Of a stretch of DNA of 64,000 nt, positions 1,943 through 33,590 are shown in pieces. Position 1 is the first letter of the stretch. The number at the start of each line of letters is the position of its first letter. The stretch is from a virus: IMG/VR virus record IMGVR_UViG_3300045988_120048, positions 1 through 64,000 of that record. One strand, given 5' to 3'. The notes under the pieces are model-generated. The model did not search any database. It was not told the origin of the DNA and worked only from the letters and a program-made list of their open reading frames with translations. Position numbers and translations under genes: made by a program.

Positions 1943-1968
1943 TATAAGAACACTGACAGCAATTTTGT
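1943..1968 (+). promoter_or_regulatory. conserved intergenic motif TAAGA...ACAGCAA...TTT, instance a
   Basis: TATAAGAACACTGACAGCAATTTTG; the same motif recurs at 2033, 12758, 12901, 13084, 13815, 14143, 14255, 27613 and 33560. Confidence 0.5.
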
Positions 1969-2032
1969 TCCGCAACTTTTTGGAAGTACAAAAGTGTTCT
2001 GTTCTCTGACATTTCTTGTAATTTTTAAAGTT

Positions 2033-2060
2033 ATAATAAGAGTATTTACAGCAAACTTTA
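2033..2060 (+). promoter_or_regulatory. conserved intergenic motif, instance b
   Basis: ATAATAAGAGTATTTACAGCAAACTTTACG, about 60 nt upstream of tRNA-Glu. Confidence 0.5.
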
Positions 2061-2117
2061 CGATTTGAATTTTAAACTTATTTTGCTAAAAATACCTTTC
2101 GTTTGTACTCTGCTTCT

Positions 2118-2189
2118 ATCGCCATCGTCTAGTGGTTAGGACTCAACATTTTCAATGTTGCAACACCAGTCCGAATCTGGTTGGCGATG
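2118..2189 (+). tRNA. tRNA-Glu (anticodon UUC), CCA encoded
   Basis: Acceptor ATCGCCA/TGGCGAT, D-arm GTCT..GGAC, anticodon stem CAACA/TGTTG with loop TTTTCAA, T-arm ACCAG-TCCGAAT-CTGGT, discriminator G followed by CCA. Confidence 0.6.
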
Positions 2190-2384
2190 CCATATCACTT
2201 ATCTAGTGATAGAAGTGCGGACCTATTACGCATATAGGTCATAGAATCCTCAGTGTTATCTGTACACTATAATGACAGAAGGATGTGACTACGCCAAAAG
2301 AGAGTCAGTTAGAAGGTAATCTAGAAACCTTCCACCACTATCTGTATTCAATTACAAGAGCTTGAGGAACTCGATAGTGGATTC

Positions 2385-2468
2385 GTACGGTTAGCCAAGT
2401 GGACGACGGCAATAGGCTGTTAACCTATCAGAGTAATCTCATCGTAGGTTCGAATCCTACACCGTGCG
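2385..2468 (+). tRNA. type II (long variable arm) tRNA with apparent anticodon GUU (Asn-like); atypical
   Basis: Acceptor GTACGGT/ACCGTGC, 3-bp D stem GCC/GGC with an 11-nt loop, anticodon stem ATAGG/CCTAT with loop CTGTTAA, 15-nt variable arm containing a GAG/CTC hairpin, T-arm GTAGG-TTCGAAT-CCTAC. Confidence 0.5.
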
Positions 2469-2469
2469 C

Positions 2470-3039
2470 ATGATTTCTGATGATATTAAACAACAAGTAA
2501 TCGAATTGAGGAAGCAAGGAAAGACTTACCCTTAGATTCATGAACTTACTGGAGTAGCTAAAAGCTCTATATCTGACATTTGCAGACCATTGGGTTTAGG
2601 AGGAAATAAGGTAATTCCGCTTACTACAGAACTGATAAGAAAAGCACAAGAATTATATGATGAGATTGGAAGCATTAAGGAAGTTGGTAAAAAATTGGGT
2701 GTTAGTTATGATAGGCTAAATAAAGTAGTTATTCTAAAGAGACCATCCAATATCCCTAAATCAGAGGTAGTAATTCGATGGAGGAATAGGGTTAAGACTA
2801 AGCTAGTAGAGTATAAAGGAGGAAAATGTCAATGCTGCGGATACAATAGGTGTATAAGAGCATTAGAATTTCATCATCTTGATCCTAGTCAGAAGGATTT
2901 TACCATATCTGGAAAAAGTAAATCATTTGAAACGCTTAAAAAAGAAGCAGATAAATGTATTTTAGTATGCTCAAATTGTCATAAAGAAATTCACGCTGGT
3001 ATTAGAAAAATAGAAGATGAAGAAATATATTTATACTAA
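2470..3039 (+). CDS. HNH homing endonuclease with N-terminal HTH; one in-frame TAG at 2533-2535
   Basis: ATG at 2470 gives MISDDIKQQVIELRKQGKTYP-TAG-IHELTGVAKSSISDI, a classic HTH if TAG is a sense codon. It runs in frame into track ORF 2590-3039, which carries the HNH-type motifs CxxC...HH...CxxCH. TAA stop. Confidence 0.6.
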
Positions 3040-3254
3040 CGACATTACGAGAAATATTTGGACAGAATACCCTATGATGAATTTTCCAGATACTTCTCAT
3101 ACTTATGTCTCTTTAGAAGTTCTTAAGAAAGTTCTTTCTAAAGATGAATTTAGAGAGTTACAATTAAAGGTAAGAAAATACTGAGTCCTAAAAACAAAGT
3201 CGAAGTACAAGACTAGTTACTGTTTGTGCCAGAGTGCTTTTTCAGTAACATTTT

Positions 3255-4321: not shown

Positions 4322-4493
4322 GTATTAAAATGAAAAAGTTAATTTTTGCATTTGCACTGATGTTTGGAGCAATGTTTGCTTCATGTGGAAATTCTACTAA
4401 CTCAGCTAACGCTGACAATGACAGTATTGATACTGTTCAGGTAGATACCCTCAATGCAGACACTGCTTCAGTTGACACTGTGTGTATGGATTA
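4322..4493 (+). CDS. small secreted or lipoprotein-like hypothetical (about 57 aa; MKKLIFAFALMFGAMFASCGNS...)
   Basis: ATG followed by a hydrophobic signal-like segment and a Cys (lipobox-like); too short for the ORF track. Confidence 0.3.
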
Positions 4494-4578
4494 ATCCCAA
4501 CTTGGCAAGATCTCTCTAAAGAGAGTTAAACCCTTAGGTGGAATATACTAAGGCACGCACATCGAAAGATGTGCTTAC

Positions 4579-4655
4579 GGGCTCATAGCTCAGTAGGTTA
4601 GAGCAGGTCACTCATAATGACAAGGTCGGGAGATCATACCTCTCTGGGCCCACCA
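4579..4655 (+). tRNA. tRNA with CAU anticodon (Met, fMet or Ile2 class), CCA encoded
   Basis: Acceptor GGGCTCA/TGGGCCC followed by A and CCA; D-arm GCTC..GAGC; anticodon loop CTCATAA; T-arm GGGAG-ATCATAC-CTCTC (unusual T-loop). A GCACATC-GAAA-GATGTGC hairpin lies immediately upstream. Confidence 0.55.
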
Positions 4656-4719
4656 AACAAAATATGGTAATTTAGCAAGTAATTAATAATTTAACCTGAA
4701 GCATTAAAATAACATATAT

Positions 4720-4802
4720 CGCGGGGGAGTGAAACGGACATTTATAAATCATGTCGGGGCTCATAATCCGTACGATAGTGGGTTAGACTCCCACACCCGC
4801 CA
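4720..4802 (+). ncRNA. atypical tRNA-like element (initiator-like 5' end CGCGGGG, internal CTCATAA loop, a hairpin with a 9-nt loop TTATAAATC)
   Basis: T-arm GTGGG-TTAGACT-CCCAC and a D-like GAGTGAAACGG are clear, but the body is about 10 nt too long for a canonical cloverleaf and the acceptor pairs imperfectly (1:72 C:C). It shares 5' and T-arm features with the CAU tRNA at 6531. Confidence 0.35.
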
Positions 4803-4829
4803 CATTATTAACAATAAAAATATATAAGT

Positions 4830-5102
4830 ATGTTTATAGTTCAAGTAACTTCTAGAGCATTCATCAGAGTATTTAATGATGAACTCGTAATTACTCCTGA
4901 TAAGGAGAAGGCAACAAAGTATGAAACAATTGGTGACGCAATGCGAGCAGCTGCACTTGCCAATGATTTTCTTGAATCAAAAACCATTCGTGCTATAAGG
5001 TACAATGGTGATGATTTAAGAGCTATCCTTGAATATGCTAAGGATAATAACTTAATGGACAAACCATTTGTAGAGGTGTATAATCTTTATAAGCGTCAGT
5101 AA
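4830..5102 (+). CDS. hypothetical protein
   Basis: ORF track, 90 aa. Confidence 0.45.
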   Translation: MFIVQVTSRAFIRVFNDELVITPDKEKATKYETIGDAMRAAALANDFLESKTIRAIRYNGDDLRAILEYAKDNNLMDKPFVEVYNLYKRQ

Positions 5103-5376
5103 GAATATAGTTCCAGTCGGTACTGGATAATTTCCTTAGCCCTTCTATGAGTCCTAGGCTAGAAGAGCTCTGTCTTTCCTATAGAAACCGGTGCACTCCA
5201 AAATGGAAAGATTACTGTTAAAAACATTGAAGCGAAGTTTCCTCTCTTGGAGTTTTGTACCTTCACATTCTCAGGTTTCTAGTAATCCATAAACTAGTGA
5301 CTTTTGTTGATTTTCAACAAGAAAATGCTGAGGATTGACATTATCCCAAATTAATGTTAGGCTCATAAAGAGTAAC

Positions 5377-5434
5377 ACGTAGGAGACCTTCTAGTAGTTT
5401 GAGAATAAAGCTAGAAACTCCTACGTCATTTTTT
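5377..5434 (+). terminator. long-stem hairpin (ACGTAGGAG...CTCCTACGT) followed by a T-run; candidate terminator or structured RNA
   Basis: 9-bp perfect inverted repeat with a 32-nt loop, followed by CATTTTTTAT. Confidence 0.35.
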
Positions 5435-5538
5435 ATAGATCTTCTCTCTTGAAATAAATATGACTATCCCAGTGTTAGTATTCTTTTTGAACTTTAAAAG
5501 ATTTAAAGTATATTTGAATACTTAAAAGTTCAAAAAAT

Positions 5539-6129
5539 ATGAATTGGGATAAGGAAATTGACAAATTAAAACATTATGTTTTTGTAGAAAAACTTTCATA
5601 TGAAGCTATTGGAAGAATTTATAATTGTTCTGGAAGCAATATTAAGAGAGTTATGACAAGAAGAGGTATAGATTTACCCATTAAATCTAGGAATGCTGGG
5701 AAGATTCCTGTAAATAAAGGAACAGGTAAAAAGCATTACTGTCTAAATTGTGGAAAGGAACTTGGAGGTTCACACAAGTATTGCTCTAATAAATGTTAGA
5801 TGGATTATGAATACAAGCAATGGGTGACAAAATATAAAGAGGACAACTCTATTGCTAAATCTACAAAGTGGGGCTAGATACCAAAAGTTTTAAAACGATA
5901 TATCTTTGAGAAATTTGAGAATAAATGTTGTAAGTGTGGATGGCATGAAGTTAATCCTTACACTAATACAATCCCCTTAGAAATTGATCACATAGATGGA
6001 AATGCAGAGAATAATTCTGAGGACAACTTACAATTAATTTGTCCAAACTGCCACTCCTTAACATCTACATATAGAGGGGCAAATAGAGGACATGGCAGGA
6101 ATATTACTTGGACTATCAAAGATGAATAA
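5539..6129 (+). CDS. HNH homing endonuclease (N-terminal domain paralogous to 26747 and 14331 genes); two in-frame TAGs at 5797 and 5875
   Basis: Track ORF 5539-5799 (zinc-ribbon CLNCGKE...YCSNKC) continues in frame through TAG into ...CCKCGWHEVNPY...EIDHIDGN...NLQLICPNCH (HNH motifs) and ends at TAA 6127-6129. Confidence 0.6.
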
Positions 6130-6329
6130 GTTCTCTAAGCTTTAAGGTGAAGCACGAAACTTTTAATTTCGGGAAAACGGGTCAGTACCGTTAGGGAACA
6201 CCAGGTGATAAATAATCATAGACGCTGTTTGAATCAAATGGCAGTACTACTGTTCGTGAGAATCGTGTGTGGGTAGCTTTCGGGCTATACGTGTTCCTAA
6301 GTCTCTACACGATAAAGAAGAGACGAGAT

Positions 6330-6603: not shown

Positions 6604-6953
6604 ACAATTAAACTTACATAATTACGGATTATAAGAGTTTAATAGTTGTTTAACTTTTAAAAATTAAATTATTATGTTTAAATTTGTAAAGAAAGCCGTA
6701 AGTTGGTACTTTAGAAAGTACTCAGAGTTGTATAAGATGGGATACTTGAATCCCTGTGCTTAAGATTAACTAATTATTTACTAAAATTAATTATGATGAT
6801 GAAGACACTTAAGAGAGCAATTAAATGGTACTTAAATTTGGCAGCCAAGACATATGCCTGGACTCCAAGTTGCACAATTCCTTACATTAAGTACAAAGAT
6901 TAATAGATTAATTATAGGATATTCTCAATTGGAGAATACTCCTGCTGCTGTGG

Positions 6954-6990
6954 TGTGATGGTCGCAAATAGAGTTCGATTCTCTATACAC
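6954..6990 (+). ncRNA. tRNA minihelix-like element (acceptor-like stem plus T-arm, no anticodon arm)
   Basis: GTGTGAT...TAGAG-TTCGATT-CTCTA-TACAC; preceded by hairpin GGATATTCTC-aattg-GAGAATACTCC at 6917-6942. Confidence 0.3.
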
Positions 6991-7088
6991 TAACTAATTT
7001 CCTGTCAAGCCTCTTAACAATGCTCAAATCGTACAGGCTCATTTTGAAAACAATAATTATGATATACAAATTTCTTTAAGAAAGGATG

Positions 7089-7200
7089 GCTCTATGGGGG
7101 AATGGTAGACCCGACAGACTTAGAAATAATTTCATTCATAATTTTGAGTGCTCTGATACGAAAGTTCAGAAGTAGAATCTCCCTAATTAAACAACTTAAT
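7089..7200 (+). pseudogene. degenerate tRNA-Leu(UAG)-like pseudogene
   Basis: GGCTCTATGGGGGAATGGTAGACCCGACAGACTTAGAA closely parallels the 5' half of tRNA-Leu at 8476 (GGGGCTATGGGGAAACTGGCTAGACCCAGCAGACTTAGGA) but lacks a matching 3' half. Confidence 0.4.
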
Positions 7201-7684
7201 AAGGTTGAAACACCTATAAGACTAGAATCTTAGAAAATGGAATTATACCGAGTAATCGTTATAATGAATTAAGTTGCGACAGAAGCCTCATCTATGGTGA
7301 CATAGGTTTTGGTGATGACGAGCTAAATTGAATATGCAATAGTACGTATAGAAAATGATTAGTATCTTCCGAGACTAGGCAAAAGGTATTAGTAAGTTTA
7401 AATACAAAATTTTCTATATTTGTGTATTCATAAATGTGTAGAGACTATACAGGAGATACCTAAGTTAATTAAAAGGAATGGTTTAGACTTCATCCTTAGT
7501 AATAAGGTTATAAGAGTAATGCATTATGTAAAAAAGGAGACGCTCATTGAGAGGTAAAACCTAATTCCTTACTTCGAAGTTAATTGATAAGGTAATAAAA
7601 TAGTCCAGACTACAATAACTTAAAAAAGAACAAAAGTGCCTGAATAGTTCAAGATGTGGCGCCGTAGAATAGACGAGAACATTT

Positions 7685-7770
7685 TTAAGTTAGCTTGTGT
7701 AAAAGCAAGTGTGGTAGGAAAATCTGTTGTCCAGGAATGGGCGTGCGAGTTCGACTCTCGCTAGAGCTAC
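7685..7770 (+). ncRNA. tRNA-like ncRNA candidate (T-arm GCGAG-TTCGACT-CTCGC, paired ends AGCTTGT/TAGAGCT, non-canonical body of about 88 nt)
   Basis: Clear T-arm and partially pairing termini, but no canonical D or anticodon arms; it lies in a 1.2-kb noncoding stretch upstream of the vWA/TROVE-like gene. Confidence 0.3.
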
Positions 7771-7796
7771 AAACATTAACATAAAAAAGAAAAGAA

Positions 7797-8342
7797 ATGG
7801 ATTATAGAGATAAATCAATTCACAAGTTGTTGATTTCAATAACTGATTCTTATAAGAAAGCTTCTACTAATAGTTCTAGATATTATCAAAAAGGATCTAC
7901 TACGATTAGGTTTTCTGATCATTACAGCGAACATGAGTTTGTTGATTTTGAAATAGTCAAGCTTTCCAACGGTTGCTATTATTTTACTGACAAGGATCTT
8001 GCAATAACTTCTTGCTTTTATAAGGAAGATATTGTAGGATTTTTAAAAAGTTACTTTAGTATAAGGGATTTATTTGCAAGTCATATAAAGAGCTTACTAA
8101 AGGCTCTCAAAAAGACTAACAAGGAGCTTCAAAAAGTCCATAAAGATCTGAATAGTGCTAAGCTGCGATCAGACTTGGAAGTAGCTGACTCTATATATGA
8201 GGAGAACAAAAGTCTAAAGGAACAATGCAAGACTATAAAGGTAGAACTAAACAACCTTAAGGGAAAGCTACAGAGTAGCAATAAGGCTTTACTGAAAGCA
8301 TCAAATGTAATAAAAGACGCTATCAATACTATTAAAATATAA
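7797..8342 (+). CDS. hypothetical coiled-coil protein
   Basis: ORF track, 181 aa; C-terminal heptad-like K/E/L-rich segment. Confidence 0.45.
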   Translation: MDYRDKSIHKLLISITDSYKKASTNSSRYYQKGSTTIRFSDHYSEHEFVDFEIVKLSNGCYYFTDKDLAITSCFYKEDIVGFLKSYFSIRDLFASHIKSLLKALKKTNKELQKVHKDLNSAKLRSDLEVADSIYEENKSLKEQCKTIKVELNNLKGKLQSSNKALLKASNVIKDAINTIKI

Positions 8343-8946: not shown

Positions 8947-10689
8947 ATGGAATTTCAAAAGAAGGTAAATTCACTTCTCGACATTAAACCTGCCGAGAAT
9001 CAGTTCGTAAAGCAAGCACTGAAAGTGTCTTCTGAAACTGAGTCAGGCAATGGAGCAAAGAAGTATTCCACAACTGGAAACGATTTTGTTGATAACTTTG
9101 CTGCTGCTTCATATTTCAAAGAGCCACGCTCTTATGAGGAGGTAGCAAAGGATATGCAAACTCTATGGGATTCAAATCCTACTCTCTGTGTAAAACTTGC
9201 GCTCTATTTCAGACTCATCACACGTAAGTCCAAAGTTGTTACTAAAGACAAAAGTGAAGAACTAGAAGTTCAGCGCGGACAGGGCTTGAAGAATGAAGGT
9301 ATTATGAGAATGCTGTGGTTGGCAATCAATCAACCTGCAACATTTAAAGTAAATCTTCCTCTTTTCATTGCAGCAGGCTCATGGAAGGATGTTATTCAAA
9401 TGCTCTCTTTAGACCTACAATATCATGGCTGGGAAGAGAGAAAGTTAGATTGGAATTTCCTATATCTGACTTTGTCAGCAGGTCTTAACAATCCTGATAC
9501 AACTCACCTGGTGCGTAAGTATTTGCCAACTATTAGAACCAATAAGAACTGTACAACGCTTGAGTCTCAAGCAGACACTCTTATAGGTAGATGGTTAGCT
9601 AGAAAATTCTCTCCTAAGTTGGAGAAGGAATCAGCTTATAAGGCTTATCGAAAGATTAAGTCTGAAGGTGTTGCTCATGAATGGCAACAACTTATTTCTC
9701 AGCAGCTGTATAACTCACTTAACTTTGACCACATTGCAGGTAGAGCGTTAGCTCTCTTGGTTGGTTCTAACTTCTTGGAAAACCACAATCTTACTAAGAA
9801 GTATATTGATTGGATTTCCTCTAAGCCTGTAGCTAAGTTCACAGGATATGTGTTCGAGCTATTTGCTCCTTTCGATGGAAACTATCGACACATAGAGGAT
9901 TACAAGGAGAAGACAATCAATGCTCAATTTGCACAACTTGTAAAGACAGGCAAAGAGAATGTGGATGCTAAGTCGTCACTACTTGTAGTACGAGATACTT
10001 CATGCTCAATGGAATCAACCGCCAGAGGATGCAAGGTGTCTTCATTCTGCATTGCTAAATCTATGGCATTGTATTTCTCTGAGTTCTTAGAGGGATGCTT
10101 CGCCGGTACATTTGCAGAGTTCTCTGATGGTTGCAAACTCCATAAATGGGCTGGAGCAACTCCAGTTGATAAGTACATCAATGATCATTGTGAGGCTTAC
10201 GGAAGTACTAATTTCCAATCTGTAATAGATCTCTTTATAAGGTTAAAATCAGAAGGAGTTGAGGAAAAGGATTTTCCAAGTGGAATCCTTTGCGTAAGTG
10301 ATGGAGAGTTTAATAGATGTGGTACTAACAAATCTACAAATTTCCAACTTGCAATTAGAAGACTTCGTGAGGCTGGATTTAGTGAGGAATACGTCAATTC
10401 CTTTAAGATTATCCTTTGGGATATTCCTAATGGATGGTATGGCGATGATAACAAGGTAAAGTTTGAAGACTTTGCAGATGCTCCTAATTTCTTCTATATG
10501 TCTGGCTATGACCCAAGTGCTGTGTCATTTATTTTAGGAGGAAATAGACCTGAACTTAAGGCTCCTAAGAATGCTGAAGAGTTATTCTTAACAGCAATGG
10601 ATCAGGAGTTACTTAATAGAGTAAGAATCGTGAAGCTTAGTGTAACTAAGCGTAAACGTAAAAAGCATACAGTTCGTACTGGTTCGTGA
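8947..10689 (+). CDS. vWA-domain protein (MIDAS motif DTSCSM); architecture compatible with a TROVE/Ro60-like protein
   Basis: Track ORF 8902-10689; the likely start is ATG 8947 (MEFQKK). MIDAS-like D-x-S-x-S sits about residue 350 of 580, C-terminal to a roughly 340-aa alpha-rich domain, as in Ro60 (TROVE then vWA). The TROVE assignment itself is tentative. Confidence 0.55.
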   Translation: MEFQKKVNSLLDIKPAENQFVKQALKVSSETESGNGAKKYSTTGNDFVDNFAAASYFKEPRSYEEVAKDMQTLWDSNPTLCVKLALYFRLITRKSKVVTKDKSEELEVQRGQGLKNEGIMRMLWLAINQPATFKVNLPLFIAAGSWKDVIQMLSLDLQYHGWEERKLDWNFLYLTLSAGLNNPDTTHLVRKYLPTIRTNKNCTTLESQADTLIGRWLARKFSPKLEKESAYKAYRKIKSEGVAHEWQQLISQQLYNSLNFDHIAGRALALLVGSNFLENHNLTKKYIDWISSKPVAKFTGYVFELFAPFDGNYRHIEDYKEKTINAQFAQLVKTGKENVDAKSSLLVVRDTSCSMESTARGCKVSSFCIAKSMALYFSEFLEGCFAGTFAEFSDGCKLHKWAGATPVDKYINDHCEAYGSTNFQSVIDLFIRLKSEGVEEKDFPSGILCVSDGEFNRCGTNKSTNFQLAIRRLREAGFSEEYVNSFKIILWDIPNGWYGDDNKVKFEDFADAPNFFYMSGYDPSAVSFILGGNRPELKAPKNAEELFLTAMDQELLNRVRIVKLSVTKRKRKKHTVRTGS

Positions 10690-11298: not shown

Positions 11299-12744
11299 AT
11301 GAATCAAATTGCAAGAAAAAGCAAGAGTTCTGTTCTTGAGCAGAAGGTAAACAACTATGAAGAGGCTATGAAGAGTAAGTTCATAGAGGTAATGCAGTTA
11401 CCAGATACAACTTACGCTGATTGCCTTGACTACATTGAGAGTGAGATTGCCCAGTCTAAGAAGATGGCAAAAATTAACTATCGCATTCAGTGTTTCCGCA
11501 ACGATGGTATCTATCAGCTCAATCAGGCTATTTCTCAGGTGTTTGGATCTGTTGTTTCTAAGGAAAGTGGCAGTCCATCAGGTGAGAAAAGTGTTCAAAC
11601 TGTAGACATTACTCTTGCTGACGGAACTAGAGTTAAGGCTCCTTACGGAGATATTCAGCTCGATGGTCTTGGAGAGGATTCTTCAATTAACATTAATTAT
11701 CGTTCTGAGACACATGAACTGGTAATTACTGGAAGACTTCAGTTCCGTTTTTCATCTTTAATGGATGACATTATTGAGCAGACCAAAATGAATTTGAAGA
11801 CTAATTCGATTTATAAGGGTCAAGCTCTGGAGATTTCCAACATTAACAATCCGGAAATTCTCGACTTACGTAACATTGACGACCAGTTGATGGTTGTTAG
11901 TAAGGAAACTGAGTACGCCCTTCGTCCAATCAATGCTCGTATTCTCAATCCAGAAAAATGTATTGAGAAAGGTATTCCATTGAAGTTTGGAGCATTGTTA
12001 GAAGGAGGCTATGGAACTGGTAAAACTCTTCTTGCCTTCAAACTTGCTCGTCAGGCTGTCAAGAACAATTGGATGTTCATTTATCTGAAGGATCCAAAAC
12101 TCTTGGCAGAATCTCTTCGCATGTCTAAGATCATCGATCAATCTGGACATGGCGTTGTAATCTTTGTTGAGGATATTGATCAGGTAACACGAGGCAATCG
12201 TGATTCTGCTATGCAGGATATCCTTAACACATTGGATGGTGGTGATACTAAGGATATGAATGTCATTACCCTTTTCACTACTAATCATATTGAACTCATT
12301 GAGCCTACCTTCTTAAGAGGTAAGCGAGTTGGTACCATCATCTCTATGGGTACTCTGGATGCTGCTACAGCAGAAGAGTTTATTCGTAAATCTTTCGAGA
12401 TTGGTTGTTATCAGATTGAGGATGACCTTACAGATGTTTGTAAGTTCATCGAAGAGAACAACATCGCTCCTGCATTTATGGCAGAAATTATCGAGAAGGT
12501 TAAATCTATGATGGTGCTCACTGATGAGTGTGTCGTAAAGGCAGAGTATATTCTTAACTCTGTTAAGTCTTATCTGCACCAGGTTAAGCTTTCCCAGAAG
12601 AAGGATATGTCCCAAACTCCTGAGAAGAGACTTGTTGAGGCACTCAAGGAATGTCTCAATGTAGACGAGAAGCGTACTAAACAGTTCATTGCAATGACTG
12701 AAAGTTACTTCGACGATAGCTTGGATAACTATAACGTGCAGTAA
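11299..12744 (+). CDS. AAA+ ATPase (classical AAA clade)
   Basis: Walker A GGYGTGKT, Walker B VIFVEDID, sensor-1 FTTN, arginine-finger region LRGKR. Confidence 0.7.
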   Translation: MNQIARKSKSSVLEQKVNNYEEAMKSKFIEVMQLPDTTYADCLDYIESEIAQSKKMAKINYRIQCFRNDGIYQLNQAISQVFGSVVSKESGSPSGEKSVQTVDITLADGTRVKAPYGDIQLDGLGEDSSININYRSETHELVITGRLQFRFSSLMDDIIEQTKMNLKTNSIYKGQALEISNINNPEILDLRNIDDQLMVVSKETEYALRPINARILNPEKCIEKGIPLKFGALLEGGYGTGKTLLAFKLARQAVKNNWMFIYLKDPKLLAESLRMSKIIDQSGHGVVIFVEDIDQVTRGNRDSAMQDILNTLDGGDTKDMNVITLFTTNHIELIEPTFLRGKRVGTIISMGTLDAATAEEFIRKSFEIGCYQIEDDLTDVCKFIEENNIAPAFMAEIIEKVKSMMVLTDECVVKAEYILNSVKSYLHQVKLSQKKDMSQTPEKRLVEALKECLNVDEKRTKQFIAMTESYFDDSLDNYNVQ

Positions 12745-12757
12745 ACTAGCTATCATA

Positions 12758-12782: not shown

Positions 12783-12818
12783 GGTTATTTTATGATTCTT
12801 TTTAAGTTCTCTATTTAA

Positions 12819-12900: not shown

Positions 12901-12925
12901 TAAGAAGACTAACAGCAAGTATTTC
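12901..12925 (+). promoter_or_regulatory. conserved intergenic motif, instance c (TAAGAAGACTAACAGCAAGTATTTC)
   Basis: About 50 nt upstream of the tRNA at 12974. Confidence 0.5.
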
Positions 12926-12973
12926 ATACACTCGATTAGGGATCAAGTAAGTACAAACAAGTCTTCTGTTTAT

Positions 12974-13083: not shown

Positions 13084-13112
13084 ATAAGAAGGAATCTAAC
13101 AGCAAATATATT
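13084..13112 (+). promoter_or_regulatory. conserved intergenic motif, instance d (ATAAGAAGGAATCTAACAGCAAATATATTC)
   Basis: Followed by tRNA-like fragments at 13120-13190 (a T-arm-like ATTGG-TTCGAAT-CCAAT, then a tRNA 5'-half-like GGTAGCTCAGCTGGTTTAGAGCA). Confidence 0.5.
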
Positions 13113-13119
13113 CTTGTAA

Positions 13120-13190
13120 AAGCAGCAAGTCATTGGTTCGAATCCAATCCTCAAAGGTAGCTCAGCTGGTTTAGAGCAGCAGCCATAAAA
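13120..13190 (+). pseudogene. fragmented or rearranged tRNA-like sequence (T-arm-like segment precedes a D-arm-like segment)
   Basis: GTCATTGGTTCGAATCCAATC then GGTAGCTCAGCTGGTTTAGAGCAGCAGCC; no consistent cloverleaf. Confidence 0.3.
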
Positions 13191-13233
13191 GAATAGATTC
13201 CTGTTTTAGATTAGTATTTATTAATTAAAAACT

Positions 13234-14142: not shown

Positions 14143-14170
14143 TTGTTATAGGAATGCACACAGCAAACTT
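14143..14170 (+). promoter_or_regulatory. conserved intergenic motif, instance h (TTATAGGAATGCACACAGCAAACTTAG)
   Basis: Family member. Confidence 0.4.
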
Positions 14171-14254
14171 AGACTATAATACAAGACTTTTAATCTTGAA
14201 CATTTCTAGTAGCATTCCGTTTTTGTTTTGAATCCATTTTTACTATATTGTTTG

Positions 14255-14282
14255 AATAAGAATACTAACAGCAATTTTATCA
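14255..14282 (+). promoter_or_regulatory. conserved intergenic motif, instance e (AATAAGAATACTAACAGCAATTTTATC)
   Basis: About 50 nt upstream of the HNH gene at 14331. Confidence 0.5.
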
Positions 14283-14330
14283 AGAATTAGTGGTTAATTT
14301 CTAAAATGTATTCTGTTTAATTTTTTTTTT

Positions 14331-27612: not shown

Positions 27613-27640
27613 ATAATAAGAGCACTTGCAGCAAAAATTC
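27613..27640 (+). promoter_or_regulatory. conserved intergenic motif, instance f (ATAATAAGAGCACTTGCAGCAAAAATTC)
   Basis: Family member, about 140 nt upstream of the minihelix element at 27777. Confidence 0.45.
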
Positions 27641-27776
27641 AAAAATAAAATATTATTCATAAAATGACTTTTGAATTTAATAACTAGCTGGTCTAGTCCG
27701 ATTTCTATTGAGGTTAATGTAGAATATTCTCTTGCTACTATTAGAAGATAAATAGAAGTAGTGGAGGTGCTCTGTT

Positions 27777-27823
27777 TAGGTTGGAGTTAAGGCTCTATAG
27801 AGGTTCGAACCCTCTCAACCTTC
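27777..27823 (+). ncRNA. tRNA minihelix-like element (acceptor-like stem plus T-arm; no anticodon arm)
   Basis: TAGGTTG-GAGTTAAGGCTCTAT-AGAGG-TTCGAAC-CCTCT-CAACCTT; 6 of 7 acceptor pairs. Confidence 0.4.
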
Positions 27824-29138: not shown

Positions 29139-29218
29139 TACCTCCTTATATCAGTGGTAGAAGTTTAACAAAGTCTATATTAGTGAAACTGTCAGTGGTT
29201 CGAATCCACTAGGAGGTA
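29139..29218 (+). ncRNA. tRNA-like element (perfect acceptor ACCTCCT/AGGAGGT and T-arm AGTGG-TTCGAAT-CCACT; body does not fold into a canonical anticodon arm)
   Basis: Middle segment is about 6 nt longer than a class I tRNA; only an AGTTT/AAACT stem with a 19-nt loop is evident. Confidence 0.4.
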
Positions 29219-29253
29219 CTACCTGTTCCTGTAAACAAAAAAAAAAGAAGAAA

Positions 29254-30528
29254 ATGGCTGATTTTAATATGAGTAAATTGTGGCTCGGTAAAGATGGATA
29301 TTACCGAGATGTAAACGGCAACAAGATTGCCTAGAAAGGGCAGCCCATTTCTGGTGCTGCTTGGAGATATTTAGCAGGAAAATATGGAAGGGAAGTTGCC
29401 AATAGAACCTCAATGAATACTAGAAATGGAAACATATTCTAGAATGGACGTTGGCGTTTTAATGATATCAAATCTTCTAAGCAAGGGAAAACTGCTACAT
29501 GGGATGAAGCAGCTTCTAGAATAGAGGAAAATGCAAAGGCAGCAGGAGCTAGAAAGACAGCAACCGGCTATACATAGAGAAACCCTTTCAATAATAAAGA
29601 TACCTATCTAAATCAAGATACAAAGAATAAAGCTATGAAGGCTTATAGAGCACGACAGAAATCATAGACTTCTGCTGAGAATCCTGATGAATTTAGTTGG
29701 AGTGATCTAAATCCTTTCAAGAAAGGTGCTTGGGAAGGCAACTGGGATAGTGCAGCAAAAAACTTCGTTGATTCCTTTAAATCAATTCCTGATATTTGGA
29801 AAAAGGGGTATGCTAGAAGAGGTGAAATGTACGATAATGTTCCTCAGAGTGTGTTGGGTCCAAAACGAAACACAGGTGCTTTGGCACGATTCAATGATAC
29901 TCTTGGAGATATTTCTAGAACTGGAAATGCTGTTCTGGGAGGAACTATTGGAACTGCCTTGCAGCTCTTGCTACCATAGAAGGTTGAGAGAGAAGCTGGC
30001 AATCTAGGACAATATCTAGATCTAGGTAAAGATGTTAACTCTGTCAGAAGTTATTTAACTCCAGGAGAAGAAGGAATATTGCCAGATGATCCTAGGAATA
30101 AGGGATTTGCTGATTAGAATTTTGCCTGGACTGGACTAGACGAATAGTAGAGAAGAAATATTAACGATGATGCCAACTTTGCTATGGCTATCCTTGGAAC
30201 TAAAGGTATGAAGGGTGGAGTCTCTAGACTTAAGACTGGAGTCTCTGGAATGATAAGAGATGGAGTAGGTACTACGCTGAAGAATAATTGGAAACCTATT
30301 ATGTCTCATACACCAGGTGCTGCTAACCTTTATTAGGCTGGAAGTGCACTTAATTCTGTAAGAAGGGCATTAGCCCCTAAGAGACTAGGAGGAGCAGAAG
30401 GAATTGGCAGTAGATCTGCAAATGTAGGAAAAGCTGCATTTCAGGGGCTTATGGCTTCAGATCCTACTATGGCACTATACCCTTATGCACATAGCAGTTA
30501 TATGGTAAATTTATCTAATAATAATTAA
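29254..30528 (+). CDS. hypothetical protein encoded with about 9 in-frame TAG codons (read-through required); ends at TAA
   Basis: One frame is continuously open from ATG 29254 to TAA 30526 except for TAG codons (for example GCC TAG AAA; TTC TAG AAT; GAA TAG TAG AGA). No in-frame TAA or TGA. Track ORF 29726-30007 is in a different, spurious frame. Confidence 0.55.
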
Positions 30529-30530
30529 AT

Positions 30531-31997
30531 ATGAGTATTAAAAAGAAGGCACAATATTTAGGTGAGGGAGTAAATTGGTTAAAAGGTCATGGTTAGATGA
30601 TACCAGATTACTTCGGAAACCTGATGAGACGAATTGGAGGAGGTGAGAGAGCTGTAGTTAGAGCTAGGCAAGCTTCTCCAGAATTAATTGCATCTAGAAA
30701 TAGTTAGAGAGGAGCTGAAATGAGTCATAATCTTGCAGCTCAAAGATATAAAGAAGCTTAGCAAGCAGAAAGTAAATTATTAGACAGCACTAAAAATTGG
30801 AAGTAGCCTAATAGTAAAAGAAATGTAAAGAGAGTAAATGATGCTGCGCGAAAAACAGATGAAGCTGAAAGAAGTGCAATAACTGCATCATAGAAAAGTA
30901 TGGAAGCTAAGGAAGCTTTCAATAATACTAAGAGACAGGTTACGAATGATGCCCTAAGACAAGTTAGGAATAAAGGTATTAAAAGAACTCTTAAAACTAC
31001 TGGACTTGTAGGTGGTCTTGGTACTGGAGCTTATCTAGTTATTCCAAGAAATTCTAAATCACCTAGTGCTGCAGCTGAAAAGAAATTAAACAAGCTTGCA
31101 AAGTAGAAAATATTGCAGTAGACAGGTAGTTGGAGACCTACATAGAAGATGAGAGAAATCAACTTAGAAGGGAAGAAGCAGTCCATCAGGGATGCAAAAG
31201 CCATGAGGAGTGCAGCTTCTAAGGCTCAACTCAAATGGATGTAGGAAAACTCTGATAAAGCTACCAAGGTTTACAAGAGTGGCGCTAGAGAATTTGGAGG
31301 GGATGAAAATAAATTAGCCCTTCTAAAGGTTAGACAAGAAGCAATGAAACCATTCATTTCGTAGGAAGCAAGTAAAATCCGAAGGAATAGAGCATTAGGT
31401 ACTTTAGGCTTAGCCGGACTTGTCACTGCAGGTTATAACTTTGAACCAACTAACTTTTATGTTCACGATCTTCATAAAGGGTGGAGAAATAAAATTGGTT
31501 TGGATTCAAAGAGTACAACTCGTACCGAAAAAGATATGTCAGATAACTTCAATAATCAAATTCAAGAGTTGGCTGCTCTGGCAATAGCCTCTGATTAGAA
31601 GGGATTAACTCCTTGGGTTTACCAAGTGTATAATAGATCACATGGCAGGGAAGCTAAATATGCAGATTTTAGTAATCCTATAAAATTCCTTAACCCTGGA
31701 TAGAGAGTTGAATATTCTAATGGAGGTATGAGCATGTCCTAGTCTAGAAATAAGGATGGATTTAATGTAGTATTAACTGACGAAGCAGCTTGGGATCCAG
31801 ATTAGGGTGCATCCTATTCAGCACTTTCTCCTAGAGGACTTCCAGTTACATTAGGAGTGACTAGGAAGAATTTGGGAAATAATATTGACAAAATGAGATA
31901 TTAGTATAATATCCCGCTCGAAAAGGTAGATAGTATGCGGAATGTATACAATAAATATTCTGAAATAATAAGAAAAGAAAGAGAAAATAAGGCATGA
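30531..31997 (+). CDS. hypothetical protein encoded with about 23 in-frame TAG codons; ends at TGA overlapping the next gene's ATG
   Basis: Frame open from ATG 30531 to TGA 31995-31997 apart from TAGs; contains track ORF 30900-31106 in the same frame; no in-frame TAA or TGA. Confidence 0.55.
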
Positions 31998-32491
31998 AAA
32001 AGATGTTAGTATTGCTTATTAGCATTCCATGTATGTTTATCGCATGGTATTGCTATGGGATGGGTAAATCTCAGTATTCTGGAAATATCTATTCTTGTAT
32101 AGATATGAAAATAGAATATGGACATATCAATCCGAATAATTTGAAGGAAGTTATTGATTTCTCAAATGAGATAACTTCTCGTACATTAACTTTTTCTACA
32201 AAATCTGAATATAAAGGTTTTGATAAGTTATCATTAAACAAAGAGACTAAAACTCATTGTGTCTATTATGCCAGAACTTATAAGAAGGTATTTGATTACA
32301 TTATCTCAAAAGGTAACTTAAAAGCAACTTGTGAAATAAGAAGAGAACCCATAAAGGGTTTAGGATTTATTCCAAAATTCTTTAAGTCCATTGGAGATAC
32401 TAGAATGTATAATTTTACCAAGGACCATGACTACTGTGTAGTTAATGGCGTAATTGTAGTAGACCCAACTGTTTATGATTTCTTACATTAA
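31994..32491 (+). CDS. secreted or lipoprotein-like hypothetical protein
   Basis: ORF track, 165 aa; hydrophobic N-terminus; start overlaps upstream stop (ATGA). Confidence 0.45.
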   Translation: MKKMLVLLISIPCMFIAWYCYGMGKSQYSGNIYSCIDMKIEYGHINPNNLKEVIDFSNEITSRTLTFSTKSEYKGFDKLSLNKETKTHCVYYARTYKKVFDYIISKGNLKATCEIRREPIKGLGFIPKFFKSIGDTRMYNFTKDHDYCVVNGVIVVDPTVYDFLH

Positions 32492-32499
32492 GAAAAAGA

Positions 32500-32544
32500 A
32501 GCTCTATATGGTATTTTTGGCAGGTTCGAATCCTGCCAGAGCTA
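32500..32544 (+). ncRNA. tRNA minihelix-like element (acceptor stem plus T-arm; no anticodon arm)
   Basis: AGCTCTA-TATGGTATTTTTG-GCAGG-TTCGAAT-CCTGC-CAGAGCT. Confidence 0.45.
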
Positions 32545-32567
32545 CAATTAACTTTAATTTTTAACAT

Positions 32568-33452
32568 ATGGTTAACGAATTTTATCAAGAATTACCTAGT
32601 AATTATGCAAATTATGAAGACGTTGTTCTTCCTAAGCACGAATCAATGAGAGAAAAAACTCGTAGAGAGGGAGTATATGGGTATCATGACCATTGGAATA
32701 AGGATGCCTATACTTGGATAGATAGATTCCTTGAGGATTCTGTTGGGAAGAAGTTTGACAACGTATATCCTAAGGTATGCGAGAGATTTAGAAAGAAGAA
32801 GGACTTCGGGTTCCGTGAAGAGTTTAAGTCAAGAATTGATCCTCATAATATGTCTGATGTATGTTGGCATAGTAACAACTACTATTTGGATTCCAATCAT
32901 ATTATTAGAAGGTATAAACCTATTAAGAATAATAAGCGCAGAAAGTATGTTATGGAGCTAGATAGGTCAGAAGATTACTACATTGTAAACAAGGAAAAAC
33001 TCTTTTTGGAACATCCAGAAATTGTACTATATTTAAAAGCCAAATTGGGCAAGGATATAGATTATATAATTGCATCCAGTGAACGACTCTCGAATGACCT
33101 TGGAAAGAAGGTACAGGAGTGTATTACTGAGGCAATAGGAAAACTGTATACAAATTATCCTCCTAATTGGTCTCTTGATTACTGGTATTCTCCTATCATA
33201 CGAAATAAAAAGTATAAGAGGCTTAGTACTTCTGACCTCATAAAGTGTTATTACGATTCTATCAATAAAACGTATTATGAGGGAACTCCAGAGTATTCAA
33301 AACATTATTATGAGGAGAGATCTGCAGAGCGGAAACGAATGAGGGAGTATAGAAAGGAGAAAGAACTAGTCCACGCTCAAATGTTGAAAGACTCGTTAAT
33401 TAGAGCCAATGCGGAAAAGTGGATTAGAAAGAATACTCGCGAATCAAACTGA
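32568..33452 (+). CDS. hypothetical basic protein
   Basis: ORF track, 294 aa, K/R/Y-rich. Confidence 0.45.
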   Translation: MVNEFYQELPSNYANYEDVVLPKHESMREKTRREGVYGYHDHWNKDAYTWIDRFLEDSVGKKFDNVYPKVCERFRKKKDFGFREEFKSRIDPHNMSDVCWHSNNYYLDSNHIIRRYKPIKNNKRRKYVMELDRSEDYYIVNKEKLFLEHPEIVLYLKAKLGKDIDYIIASSERLSNDLGKKVQECITEAIGKLYTNYPPNWSLDYWYSPIIRNKKYKRLSTSDLIKCYYDSINKTYYEGTPEYSKHYYEERSAERKRMREYRKEKELVHAQMLKDSLIRANAEKWIRKNTRESN

Positions 33453-33559
33453 AAAAGGGTTTATAGTAAGTAGAATACAAACCAGAAACCCTGAGTAGGC
33501 TATAAATTGCCAAACAGCCATCCTTGTAATGAGGTAGGAGCGTTGTTAGGTATCCTTAT

Positions 33560-33590
33560 AAGATAACATACAGCAAAATTATTCTTCACT
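33560..33590 (+). promoter_or_regulatory. conserved intergenic motif, instance g (TATAAGATAACATACAGCAAAATTATTC)
   Basis: About 100 nt upstream of tRNA-Trp. Confidence 0.45.

What the first reader, a model, noticed from the sequence alone, without database searches (positions are those of the whole stretch)
1943..33590. Recurring ~25-nt intergenic motif TAAGA(A/G)..(3-6 nt)..ACAGCAA..(A/T-rich) in tRNA/HNH regions
At least ten instances share the core: 1943, 2033, 12758, 12901, 13084, 13815, 14143, 14255, 27613, 33560. Examples are TAAGAAGACTAACAGCAAGTATTTC and AATAAGAATACTAACAGCAATTTTATC. All are intergenic and on the coding strand. Most lie 40-150 nt upstream of a tRNA, tRNA-like element or HNH gene, often just after a T-rich run. 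The motif does not resemble the Bacteroidota sigma-A promoter (TTTG / TAnnTTTG) or the group I intron R element. It is therefore a candidate phage-specific promoter (phage sigma factor or RNAP), an RNA processing site, or a recombination/insertion hotspot linked to tRNA-HNH cassette spread.
Basis: seen in the sequence. Interest (0 to 1): 0.6.

Follow-up and report, generated by a model that had tools for sequence, protein, structure and literature searches.

The report
Small RNAs partnering a phage Ro60-like protein
The repeated "TAAGA…ACAGCAA" motif is not a promoter: it is the front end of a family of small folded RNAs that sit beside a phage gene for a Ro60-like RNA-binding protein, in phages of many bacterial phyla, and so are probably that protein's unidentified "Y RNA" partners.

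Summary
Eight of the ten listed sites, one degenerate variant (14150) and one missed site (1816) form one family. The site at 13815 lies inside a tmRNA and is not a member.

The motif is the 5' module (AAG, 7-9 nt, ACAGCAA) of a 54-155 nt element. The variable 7-9 nt pair with a stretch downstream that ends in YCU-G. The stem covaries strongly. All copies are intergenic and on the gene strand (9 strict hits against 0.1 expected).

Some copies carry a YrlA-type tRNA-like module. About a third end 5-9 nt before a tRNA or tmRNA.

Best reading: these are Y-RNA-like partners of a divergent phage Ro60. All conserved features also match Dictyostelium Class I RNAs; that link is unproven.

The parts
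1816..1915 (+). AAGAUGGCG-CACAGCAA ... CGCCAUCU-G, 98-nt stem-to-stem. Starts 15 nt after tRNA-Gly.
   Evidence: Strict scan; MFE fold keeps the terminal stem, z = -2.7; RF01414 15.5 bits.
1946..2001 (+). Element 2. AAGAACACU-GACAGCAA ... AGUGUUCU-G, 54 nt (short class).
   Evidence: own covariance model R1 42.8 bits, E = 7e-8.
2038..2112 (+). Element 3. AAGAGUA-UUUACAGCAA ... GUACUCU-G, 73 nt. The stem ends 6 nt before tRNA-Glu (2118).
   Evidence: RF01414 20.2 bits.
8947..10689 (+). Gene for the Ro60-like protein (580 aa): an alpha-helical TROVE-like ring plus a vWA domain with the MIDAS motif DxSxS. Proposed protein partner of the RNAs.
11299..12744 (+). AAA ATPase gene between the Ro-like gene and the RNA cluster. 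Possible accessory factor; membership in the system is not shown.
   Evidence: Pfam AAA, E = 3e-14. Conserved next to the Ro-like gene in L125-L127 but absent in L121-L124. An AAA ATPase also lies upstream of the homologue in Acinetobacter phage ME3.
12757..12813 (+). Element 4. AAGAGAACUU-UAGCAA ... AAGUUCUCU-A, 55 nt (core variant UAGCAA). Ends 6 nt before a tRNA-like minihelix (12819-12863).
   Evidence: z = -3.1; 27 bits.
12902..12968 (+). Element 5. AAGAAGACU-AACAGCAA ... AGUCUUCU-G, 65 nt. Ends 6 nt before tRNA-Pro (12974).
   Evidence: RF01414 18.4 bits.
13089..13203 (+). Element 6. AAGGAAUCUAACAGCAA ... UAGAUUCCU-G, 113 nt. Encloses a YrlA-type permuted tRNA-like module (T arm, short stem-loop, D arm).
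   Evidence: RF02553 YrlA 28.1 bits, E = 0.0018, below the gathering score of 69. A close relative lacks the insert (59 nt).
14150..14219 (+). Element 7, a degenerate variant. AGGAAUGC-ACACAGCAA ... GCAUUCC-G, directly after the tmRNA.
   Evidence: stem in the MFE fold, z = -2.2; only 9.8 bits. Conserved in relative L047.
14258..14315 (+). Element 8. AAGAAUAC-UAACAGCAA ... GUAUUCU-G, 56 nt. Followed by a U-run and an HNH gene.
   Evidence: R1 47.8 bits, E = 4e-9; RF01414 26.7 bits.
27618..27774 (+). Element 9. AAGAGCACUU-GCAGCAA ... AGGUGCUCU-G, 155 nt. Ends about 6 nt before a tRNA-like minihelix (27779-27820).
33560..33668 (+). Element 10. AAGAUAACA-UACAGCAA ... UGUUGUCU-G, 107 nt. Ends 8 nt before tRNA-Trp (33676).

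Best explanation
The motif is the 5' module of a multi-copy family of small structured non-coding RNAs.

Anatomy. Each RNA has its 5' and 3' ends paired in a 7-9 bp stem. The stem always starts A-G-R and ends Y-C-U, and is flanked by an unpaired A on the 5' side and a G on the 3' side. A single-stranded ACAGCAA follows directly after the 5' strand, at a fixed offset of 10 nt. The interior is variable: a small hairpin in the 50-70 nt class, or a YrlA-type tRNA-like domain in part of the 100-150 nt class.

Proposed mechanism.
- The RNAs are transcribed with the phage tRNA arrays, or from their own promoters in other phages.
- Where a copy abuts a tRNA or tmRNA, RNase P cleavage 5-9 nt after the stem releases it.
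- The released RNAs are bound by the Ro60-like ring protein encoded next to them (8947-10689). They would then be the Y-RNA equivalents of a divergent phage Ro60 RNP.
- By analogy with Ro60/Rsr-Y RNA complexes, the stem plus ACAGCAA module is the protein-binding site and the variable module recruits or mimics other factors such as tRNA-binding enzymes or exoribonucleases.
- The RNP would act in RNA metabolism or quality control during infection, or in counter-defence. The Bas63 homologue gp130 counters the Ppl defence system.

Shown here: the RNA family, its structure by covariation, the Ro60 fold of the protein, and the genomic linkage across distant phages.

Inferred: binding, processing and function.
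For: Structure.
- Sites picked only by AAG-N6-7-ACAGCAA: 36 of 37 have a perfect 7-bp closing partner within 260 nt, against 21% with mismatched partners.
- Alignment A3: 91.9% of cells paired against 40-53% in slid controls. 7 of 9 pairs show compensatory changes, 74 such cells against 22 in shuffles.
- Conversely, frames picked only by AAG + 8-bp stem + CUG carry ACAGCAA at offset 10 in 143 of 257 cases on the gene strand. No 7-mer dominates on the other strand (the commonest occurs 3 times in 48 frames) and none recurs in the background.
- The MFE folds keep the terminal stem in 9 of 9 window copies.

Protein.
- AF2 model with pLDDT 92.3.
- The family profile hits the Ro60 MIDAS region.

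Linkage.
- 80 viral loci holding the gene: 288 elements on the gene strand, 5 on the other, in 1.45 Mb. 116 background loci (1.12 Mb): 13 on both strands together.
- Element density and the element-to-tRNA ratio peak within -1 to +6 kb of the gene.
- The same frame lies next to homologues of 22-45% identity: Leptolyngbya phage Lbo-JY46 (five tandem copies starting 8 nt after the stop codon, no tRNAs between), Bacillus Tsamsa, Fusobacterium Fnu1, E. coli EC6 and Bas63, Listeria LP-124 and cka11.

Y-RNA likeness.
- YrlA-type T / stem-loop / D modules sit inside the same frame.
- ACAGCAAAU against the YrlA Rfam consensus ACGGCGAAU, which holds the proposed Rsr-binding GNCGAA: 7 of 9 identical, at the same position (PMC4201824).

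Literature.
- Bas63 gp130 is Ro60-like and counters Ppl; its Y RNAs are unidentified (PMC11482910).
- Listeria CKA15_055 is Rsr-like with highly expressed ncRNAs within 2 kb upstream (PMC12282133).
Against: - No binding or expression data exist for these exact RNAs.
- The motif differs from the established Ro-binding motifs (GGUCCGA, GNCGAA, CGAA). No copy reaches the Rfam YrlA gathering score (28-34.5 bits against 69).
- Most of the 80 loci are related phages with conserved synteny, so the co-occurrence counts are not independent events. The five distant cultured lineages are the stronger evidence.
- Elements also cluster with tRNAs. 99 of 288 abut a tRNA at a fixed 5-9 nt spacing, which could point to a role in tRNA maturation instead.
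- Loci whose Ro-like gene is only 32-36% identical (L201-L207) and Acinetobacter phage ME3 show essentially no elements within the sequence held: 1 gene-strand hit in the seven loci and none in ME3.
- The most abundant Listeria-phage ncRNA near the gene is probably a ROOL RNA, not these elements.
Confidence: 0.7

Rival explanations
1. The elements are cis-acting 5' leader or spacer structures of the phage tRNA and tmRNA precursors. They guide or protect processing (a fixed distance to the RNase P site, protection from nucleases) and work without the Ro-like protein.
For: - 23 of 42 elements and 99 of 288 elements end 5-9 nt, most often 6, before a tRNA or tmRNA 5' end.
- In the window this holds for tRNA-Glu, tRNA-Pro, tRNA-Trp and two minihelices.
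- Elements lie inside tRNA arrays in Bas63 and EC6.
Against: - About two thirds of copies are not followed by a tRNA.
- In Lbo-JY46 five copies are tandem with no tRNA between them. In Listeria phages three copies lie between a promoter and the Ro-like gene. In Tsamsa and Fnu1 copies have their own sigma-A promoters.
- The element-to-tRNA ratio is 0.6-1.2 next to the Ro-like gene but 0-0.25 in tRNA-rich stretches further away.
- A conserved single-stranded heptamer plus conserved closing pairs is more typical of a protein-binding site.
- This reading can coexist with the main one.
Confidence: 0.15
2. The motif is a phage-specific promoter, recognised by a phage sigma factor or RNA polymerase.
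For: - Intergenic, strand-specific and A/T-rich upstream, with UAAUA-like sequence just 5' of the stem.
- Many copies precede tRNAs or genes.
Against: - Conservation lies in and directly around a covarying stem whose partner is 40-150 nt downstream. A promoter would not need this.
- No position upstream of -2 exceeds 0.41 bit.
- In phages of Firmicutes and Fusobacteria a consensus sigma-A promoter lies upstream of the motif; cka11 has TTGACA-N17-TATCAT.
- The same motif occurs in phages of at least four bacterial phyla (inferred Bacteroidota for the window) with different transcription machinery.
Confidence: 0.03
3. The repeats are DNA-level features: inverted-repeat target or recombination sites for HNH homing endonucleases, or a MITE-like mobile element that spreads tRNA-HNH cassettes.
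For: - Multi-copy.
- Terminal inverted complementarity.
- Two copies flank HNH genes (14258-14315, 27618-27774).
Against: - Strict strand asymmetry: 288 against 5.
- The stems differ between copies but stay paired, including G-U pairs that do not pair as DNA on the opposite strand.
- Only the 5' side carries the conserved heptamer.
- Copies occur in phage loci without HNH genes (Lbo-JY46, Listeria, Fnu1).
Confidence: 0.03

Closest known systems
Bacterial and phage Y RNAs / YrlA (Rfam RF02553) bound by Ro60/Rsr, including Thermus phage phiLo Yrl1/Yrl2 and mycobacteriophage YrlA
   Same: - Encoded within a few kb of a Ro60-fold protein and on the same strand.
- The 5' and 3' ends pair in a terminal stem.
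- A short conserved purine-rich motif lies next to the 5' strand (ACAGCAAAU against the YrlA consensus ACGGCGAAU).
- A subset carries the T arm / stem-loop / D arm tRNA mimic.
- Several paralogues per genome.
   Different: - The protein is not a Pfam TROVE member. It belongs to the DUF2828/DUF7788 (PHROG 850) branch, with 11-14% identity to Ro60.
- The motif is ACAGCAA, not GNCGAA, CGAA or GGUCCGA.
- The closing pairs A-U and G-C plus flanking A and G are invariant.
- Most copies are minimal (50-70 nt) and lack a tRNA-like domain.
- There are up to about 10 copies per 20-35 kb, often fused to tRNA precursors.
- Rfam scores are 28-34.5 bits against a gathering score of 69.
Dictyostelium Class I RNAs (Rfam RF01414; Kjellin et al. 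2021, PMC7919456)
   Same: All published defining RNA features are shared:
- Start AAG and end CUG(U).
- A short covarying terminal stem.
- A conserved single-stranded ...U.ACAGCAA directly after the 5' strand.
- An A/U-rich variable interior.
- 42-65 nt, against 50-69 nt for the main phage class.
- Tens of paralogues with different stems.

Infernal hits to RF01414 are recurrent: 15-30 bits in the window and its relatives, and 39.3 bits (E = 5e-4) in Leptolyngbya phage Lbo-JY46.
   Different: - Found in a eukaryote, with a DUSE promoter about 60 nt upstream and probably Pol III transcription.
- 6-bp stem, and the core sits 1 nt further from the start.
- The known binder is the RRM protein Rnp1A/CIBP.
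- No hit reaches the Rfam gathering score of 41.5.
- Class I RNAs were reported as unique to Dictyostelia.
- Homology, convergence, or a shared DUF2828-type protein partner could not be tested here.
Bas63 gp130 and Listeria phage CKA15_055 (Ro60/Rsr-like phage proteins noted in 2024-2025 papers)
   Same: They are homologues of the window ORF (tblastn; PHROG 850). They lie next to tRNA arrays. The authors proposed unidentified Y RNAs nearby.
   Different: Those papers did not define the RNAs. One guessed that some annotated tRNAs are the Y RNAs; the other pointed to highly transcribed regions, the largest of which is probably a ROOL RNA. The ACAGCAA-frame elements found here are a specific, testable candidate set: Bas63 MZ501086.1 82072-82138, 82239-82296, 82694-82761 and 82781-82906.

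Membership tests
Y RNA / YrlA (Ro60-associated ncRNA) | Encoded close to a Ro60 orthologue (within about 4 kb) and on the same strand | tested here: met
   Elements 12757-13203 lie 2.1-2.5 kb downstream of the Ro60-fold gene 8947-10689 on the same strand. Across 80 loci the density peaks from -1 to +6 kb. The elements also lie next to the gene in five distant cultured phage lineages.
Y RNA / YrlA (Ro60-associated ncRNA) | Terminal stem formed by the 5' and 3' ends | tested here: met
   7-9 bp stem with covariation: 7 of 9 pairs compensatory, 91.9% paired. 36 of 37 sites close in the unbiased test.
Y RNA / YrlA (Ro60-associated ncRNA) | Conserved Ro-binding motif GNCGAA(N0-1)G (bacteria) or GGUCCGA (metazoa) near the 5' end | tested here: not met
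   The conserved heptamer is ACAGCAA. It aligns to the YrlA consensus ACGGCGAAU at 7 of 9 positions but does not satisfy GNCGAA.
Y RNA / YrlA (Ro60-associated ncRNA) | tRNA-like domain (T arm, acceptor-like stem-loop, D arm) | tested here: inconclusive
   Present in window element 13089-13203 and in 16-41 of 77 unique long elements. Absent from the 50-70 nt majority.
Y RNA / YrlA (Ro60-associated ncRNA) | Rfam RF02553 gathering score (69 bits) | tested here: not met
   28.1 bits in the window and at most 34.5 bits in relatives.
Y RNA / YrlA (Ro60-associated ncRNA) | Physical binding by the Ro60-type protein | not testable with these tools
   Needs EMSA, RIP or cryo-EM.
Dictyostelium Class I RNA (RF01414) | Conserved ends: AAG at the start and CUGU at the end, flanking a short covarying stem | tested here: met
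   A0 95%, A1 and G2 100% (imposed by the scan), C-1 and U0 100% (imposed), G+1 96%, U or A at +2. Published features from PMC7919456.
Dictyostelium Class I RNA (RF01414) | 11-nt motif CCUUACAGCAA adjacent to the 5' strand (U3, C6, C9, A10 and A11 most conserved) | tested here: inconclusive
   ACAGCAA is conserved at 75-96% per position, with U at the equivalent of position 3 in 64%. The spacing is 1 nt shorter and the CC is not conserved.
Dictyostelium Class I RNA (RF01414) | Rfam gathering score (41.5 bits) | tested here: not met
   Window maximum 26.7 bits, relatives 30.1 bits, Lbo-JY46 39.3 bits (E = 5e-4). No hits at gathering threshold in the window or in 139 kb of relatives.
Dictyostelium Class I RNA (RF01414) | DUSE promoter about 60 nt upstream; dictyostelid genome | tested here: not met
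   Phage context. No conserved upstream element; sigma-A promoters in other phages.
Ro60 / TROVE protein family (for ORF 8947-10689) | HEAT-like helical ring plus C-terminal vWA domain with MIDAS | tested here: met
Ro60 / TROVE protein family (for ORF 8947-10689) | Sequence membership (Pfam TROVE) | tested here: not met
   Pfam reports only DUF7788 and DUF2828. Profile against PDB sequences: Ro60 at E = 0.014, limited to the MIDAS segment.
Bacteroidota sigma-A promoter | -33 TTTG and -7 TAnnTTTG at a fixed distance from the start | tested here: not met
   The position profile of 227 unique elements shows no such boxes; information content is at most 0.41 bit upstream of position -2.

The most novel reading that the evidence does not exclude
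The phage ACAGCAA-frame RNAs and the Dictyostelium Class I RNAs would be one RNA family: the cognate 'Y RNAs' of the DUF2828/DUF7788 branch of the Ro60 fold. That branch occurs in phages and giant viruses of protists (BFVD matches), and Pfam also records DUF2828 in eukaryotes (from memory, not tested here). On this reading Class I RNAs, reported as unique to Dictyostelia and without a known mechanism, act as partners of a Ro-like ring protein, and this RNP is ancient or was horizontally transferred between viruses and eukaryotes. One specific lead is the uncharacterised Class I pull-down protein DDB_G0281243.
Probability: 0.3. Interest if true: 0.9.

Novelty: new variant of a known kind. Interest (0 to 1): 0.72.

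Why it matters
- Ro60-Y RNA particles are known in animals, some bacteria and a few phages. For the large PHROG 850 / DUF2828 group of phage 'RNA-binding proteins' (388 cultured-phage records, including Felix O1-like coliphages and P100-like Listeria phages used in biocontrol) no RNA partner has been defined.
- Two recent papers explicitly left that partner open. One of them showed that the protein counters a bacterial defence system (Ppl).
- A precisely defined, easily mutated RNA family next to the gene makes the question directly testable in model phages.
- It explains much of the 'spacer' sequence in phage tRNA arrays. It also flags mis-annotated mini-ORFs that overlie the elements.
- If the match to Dictyostelium Class I RNAs reflects common descent or a common protein partner, it would give a mechanistic handle on an abundant eukaryotic ncRNA class whose function has been unknown since 2004.

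Tried and rejected
- Known ribozymes and riboswitches. An Rfam scan of the window at gathering threshold and at E <= 10 around the elements gave no hammerhead, twister, pistol, hatchet or HDV-like hit.
- Pairing between ACAG and the 3' CUGU. It is geometrically incompatible with the stem and does not covary: the tails are GAUU, GCUU or AUUU in several copies.
- Integron attC-like sites. The R'/R'' boxes are absent.
- The tmRNA site at 13815. Rejected as a member: wrong spacing and no closing frame.
- Covariance model R1, built on trimmed alignments. It recovers the short copies (22-48 bits) but only fragments of the long ones. Its extra hits are a terminator-like hairpin (57039-57070) and a chance-like minus-strand site (687-740).
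- A pattern scan of viral contigs was mostly chance matches. Only 4 of about 120 loci held real elements.
- Looking for a link between Dictyostelium and DUF2828. Four routes were unavailable or empty: afdb50; Avesson 2011; the supplements of Kjellin 2021; and papers mentioning DUF2828, DUF7788 or DDB_G0281243.
- Mapping the highly transcribed regions of Listeria phage CKA15 onto the elements. The largest region is probably a ROOL RNA. The other two regions could not be placed.
- Alignment-based search of genome contigs failed. The single-protein search returned only Bacteroidaceae, Bacteroides, Alistipes and Coprovivens MAG contigs.

Full report
**1. What is in the sequence**

The window looks like part of a large, TAG-recoded phage.
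- All long ORFs are on the + strand.
- ARAGORN tRNAs, including a CUA suppressor.
- Rfam finds a tmRNA and two group I introns.
- A NAMPT gene is closest to those of Bacteroides crAss-like phages. Close relatives of the Ro-like gene (section 3) sit in Bacteroidaceae, Bacteroides and Alistipes MAG bins.

The variable bases between TAAGA and ACAGCAA are repeated as a reverse complement 40-150 nt downstream, and that copy is always followed by G. Examples:
- GAACACU / AGUGUUC
- GAAGACU / AGUCUUC
- GAAUAC / GUAUUC
- GGAAUCU / AGAUUCC

A strict structural definition gives 9 hits on the + strand and 1 chance-like hit on the - strand. 200 dinucleotide shuffles give a mean of 0.105. Adding a degenerate copy at 14150-14219, the window holds ten elements. 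The copy at 1816-1915 was missed.

**2. It is a structured RNA**

I ran two tests that avoid circularity.
- Sites chosen only by the 5' sequence AAG-N6-7-ACAGCAA, in the window and related loci. 36 of 37 have a perfect 7-bp partner within 260 nt, against 21% when 5' strands are paired with other elements' downstream sequence.
- Frames chosen only by AAG + 8-bp closing stem + CUG. 143 of 257 on the gene strand carry exactly ACAGCAA at offset 10. No 7-mer dominates on the opposite strand (the commonest occurs 3 times in 48 frames) and none recurs in the background loci.

On an alignment of 37 elements, 7 of 9 stem pairs show compensatory changes. 91.9% of cells are paired, against 40-53% when the partner is slid. 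There are 74 double-change cells against 22 in shuffles. Those 37 sequences had been selected for a stem, so the two tests above carry the weight.

ViennaRNA keeps the terminal stem in all nine window copies tested and usually leaves ACAGCAA unpaired; z-scores run from -0.7 to -3.1.

The profile of 227 unique elements gives this consensus: A0 (95%), A1-G2-R3, C7, A10-C-A-G-C-A-A16 at a fixed offset in 190 of 227, an A-rich stretch before the 3' strand, then Y-C-U and G+1 (96%). Upstream of position -2 nothing is conserved.

Sizes are bimodal: 50-69 nt (191 of 288) and about 100-150 nt.

**3. The neighbour is a Ro60-like protein**

ORF 8947-10689 hits only DUF7788 and DUF2828 in Pfam and PHROG 850 'RNA-binding protein'. 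An AlphaFold2 model built from 52 homologues has pLDDT 92.3.
- Foldseek against the PDB: the top eight hits, over the full length, are all Ro60/Rsr, including the Thermus phage phiLo Ro60.
- The MIDAS motif DxSxS is invariant in the family.
- In BFVD the family includes proteins of phages and of giant viruses: Pithovirus, CroV, ChoanoV1, Marseillevirus and Bodo saltans virus.

**4. Linkage of RNA and protein**

In 80 viral loci holding a homologue (32-99% identity; 1.45 Mb) the strict scan finds 288 elements on the gene strand and 5 on the other. In 116 unrelated viral loci (1.12 Mb, and biased towards the motif because of how they were collected) it finds 13 on both strands together.

Elements peak from -1 to +6 kb around the gene. 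The element-to-tRNA ratio is 0.6-1.2 next to the gene and 0-0.25 further away. Many of these loci are syntenic relatives, so the counts are not independent.

The stronger evidence comes from distant cultured phages.
- **Leptolyngbya phage Lbo-JY46** (44.6% identity): five head-to-tail copies start 8 nt after the stop codon, with no tRNAs between them.
- **Bacillus phage Tsamsa** (22%): three copies within 1.8 kb upstream of the gene. One is YrlA-type. One sits 8 nt downstream of a TTGACA-N17-TATAAT promoter.
- **Fusobacterium phage Fnu1** (22%): one copy lies between a consensus promoter and the gene.
- **E. coli phages EC6 and Bas63** (25%): four copies directly downstream in the tRNA array, one of them YrlA-type.
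- **Listeria phages LP-124 and cka11** (23%): three copies 70-340 nt upstream of the gene.
- **Acinetobacter phage ME3**, and loci with only 32-36% identity: essentially none in the sequence held (none in ME3, one hit in the seven loci).

**5. Relation to tRNAs**

In 23 of 42 elements and 99 of 288, the next tRNA or tmRNA starts 5-9 nt, most often 6, after the stem. RNase P would then define the 3' end. In the window this applies to tRNA-Glu, tRNA-Pro, tRNA-Trp and two tRNA-like minihelices. This supports co-transcription and processing. It does not explain the tRNA-free arrays or the concentration around the Ro-like gene.

**6. Comparison with known families**

*Y RNAs.* Bacterial YrlA RNAs are encoded within 4 kb of rsr on the same strand. 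They have a GNCGAA motif near the 5' end and a T / acceptor-like / D tRNA mimic (PMC4201824). Here the location, the terminal stem and, in a subset, the tRNA mimic all agree (RF02553 28-34.5 bits). The heptamer aligns to the YrlA consensus at 7 of 9 positions. But the defining motif and the Rfam threshold are not met, and the protein is a divergent branch. So this works like a Y RNA but is not a member of YrlA as currently defined.

*Dictyostelium Class I RNAs.* RF01414 gives recurrent sub-threshold hits: 15-27 bits in the window, 30.1 in relatives, and 39.3 bits at E = 5e-4 in Lbo-JY46, against a gathering score of 41.5. No hit appears at gathering threshold. The published definition reads: AAG start, CUGU end, short covarying stem, CCUUACAGCAA after the 5' strand, variable interior, 42-65 nt, many paralogues (PMC7919456). 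It matches point for point, apart from a 1-nt spacing difference and the eukaryotic promoter. I could not test whether this is homology, convergence or a shared protein partner.

*Literature on the protein.* Bas63 gp130 was noted as Ro60-like and shown to counter the Ppl defence system, with the guess that some annotated tRNAs are its Y RNAs (PMC11482910). Listeria phage CKA15_055 was noted as Rsr-like, is present in virions, and has very abundant ncRNAs within 2 kb upstream (PMC12282133). The most abundant of those is probably a ROOL RNA. Neither paper defines the RNA family described here. No paper in the library links DUF2828 or DUF7788 to Ro60.

**7. Verdict**

- The promoter and recombination-site readings are not supported.
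- The most likely explanation (confidence 0.7) is a family of Y-RNA-like small RNAs that partner a divergent phage Ro60-type protein. They are partly embedded in tRNA precursors and released by tRNA processing.
- Binding, RNA ends and biological role (RNA quality control, nuclease recruitment, or counter-defence as for gp130) are inferred, not shown.
- Novelty: a new variant of a known kind.
- The most novel reading not excluded is that Dictyostelium Class I RNAs belong to the same RNP type (probability about 0.3).

Noticed in passing
window 13793-14123: A phage-encoded tmRNA (RF00023, 65.7 bits) that ARAGORN did not call. In relatives L125 and L127 an ACAGCAA element ends 6-7 nt before the tmRNA 5' end, as it does before tRNAs.
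   Followed up: partly
window 29140-29219; 29250-31990; HNH ORFs 2470-3039, 5539-6130, 14330-14760, 26740-27595: A suppressor tRNA with anticodon CUA, together with many in-frame TAG codons in long reading frames. This points to TAG stop-codon reassignment in part of the genome.
   Followed up: no
window 22773-23057 and 48363-48645: Two group I introns (RF00028, 88.3 and 50.1 bits). The first directly follows the amidoligase-like ORF 21885-22784, so that gene is probably split.
   Followed up: no
window 7001-7038: An abiF RNA motif (RF03085, 50.2 bits; gathering score 37) inside a long non-coding stretch (about 6900-7790). The same motif occurs in relative L129 at 8204-8241.
   Followed up: no
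window 12819-12863, 27779-27820, 32511-32545, 14775-14895, 4720-4800, 655-790: Several tRNA-like minihelices or odd tRNA-like sequences: an acceptor-like stem plus a GGUUCGAAUCC T arm, but no full cloverleaf, or with a long insert. The tRNA finders do not call them. Two lie 6 nt after an ACAGCAA element.
   Followed up: partly
window 13089-13203 versus L047 4727-4785: A 93%-identical relative lacks the 54-nt tRNA-like insert of this element (59 nt against 113 nt). The deletion lies between AGCAGCA direct repeats, so the tRNA-like module is gained or lost as a unit.
   Followed up: partly
window 57039-57077: A terminator-like hairpin, AAGGAGAGAA-CAGU-AUUCUCUCC-UGUUUUUUUU. It mimics the AAG...CUG frame but has no ACAGCAA core. 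It was picked up by covariance model R1 at 22 bits.
   Followed up: yes
L212 4006-4557 (Listeria phage LP-124); L215 about 1460-2040 (cka11): A ROOL RNA (RF03087, 87.4 bits, E = 3e-16, just under the gathering score of 99.1) about 1 kb upstream of the Ro-like gene, behind a sigma-A promoter. It probably corresponds to the 'CKA15_059-061' region reported as about 67% of phage transcripts.
   Followed up: partly
L214 7040-7314 (Bas63 bas63_0137 and bas63_0138, minus strand): Annotated antisense mini-ORFs overlap the predicted RNA elements 6986-7053 and 7073-7198. They are probably mis-annotations.
   Followed up: no
window 11299-12744; L213 (ME3) 4426-5985; L212 8392-12104: Genes that recur next to the Ro-like gene in different phages: an AAA ATPase (window, L125-L127, ME3), a NUDIX hydrolase (ME3), and an RtcB-like ligase plus an RNA ligase (Listeria). 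This is an RNA-repair-like neighbourhood.
   Followed up: no
L209 11490-11810 (Bacillus phage Tsamsa): A roughly 320-nt GC-richer, apparently structured non-coding stretch lies between two ACAGCAA elements, just upstream of the Ro-like gene. It was not identified.
   Followed up: no
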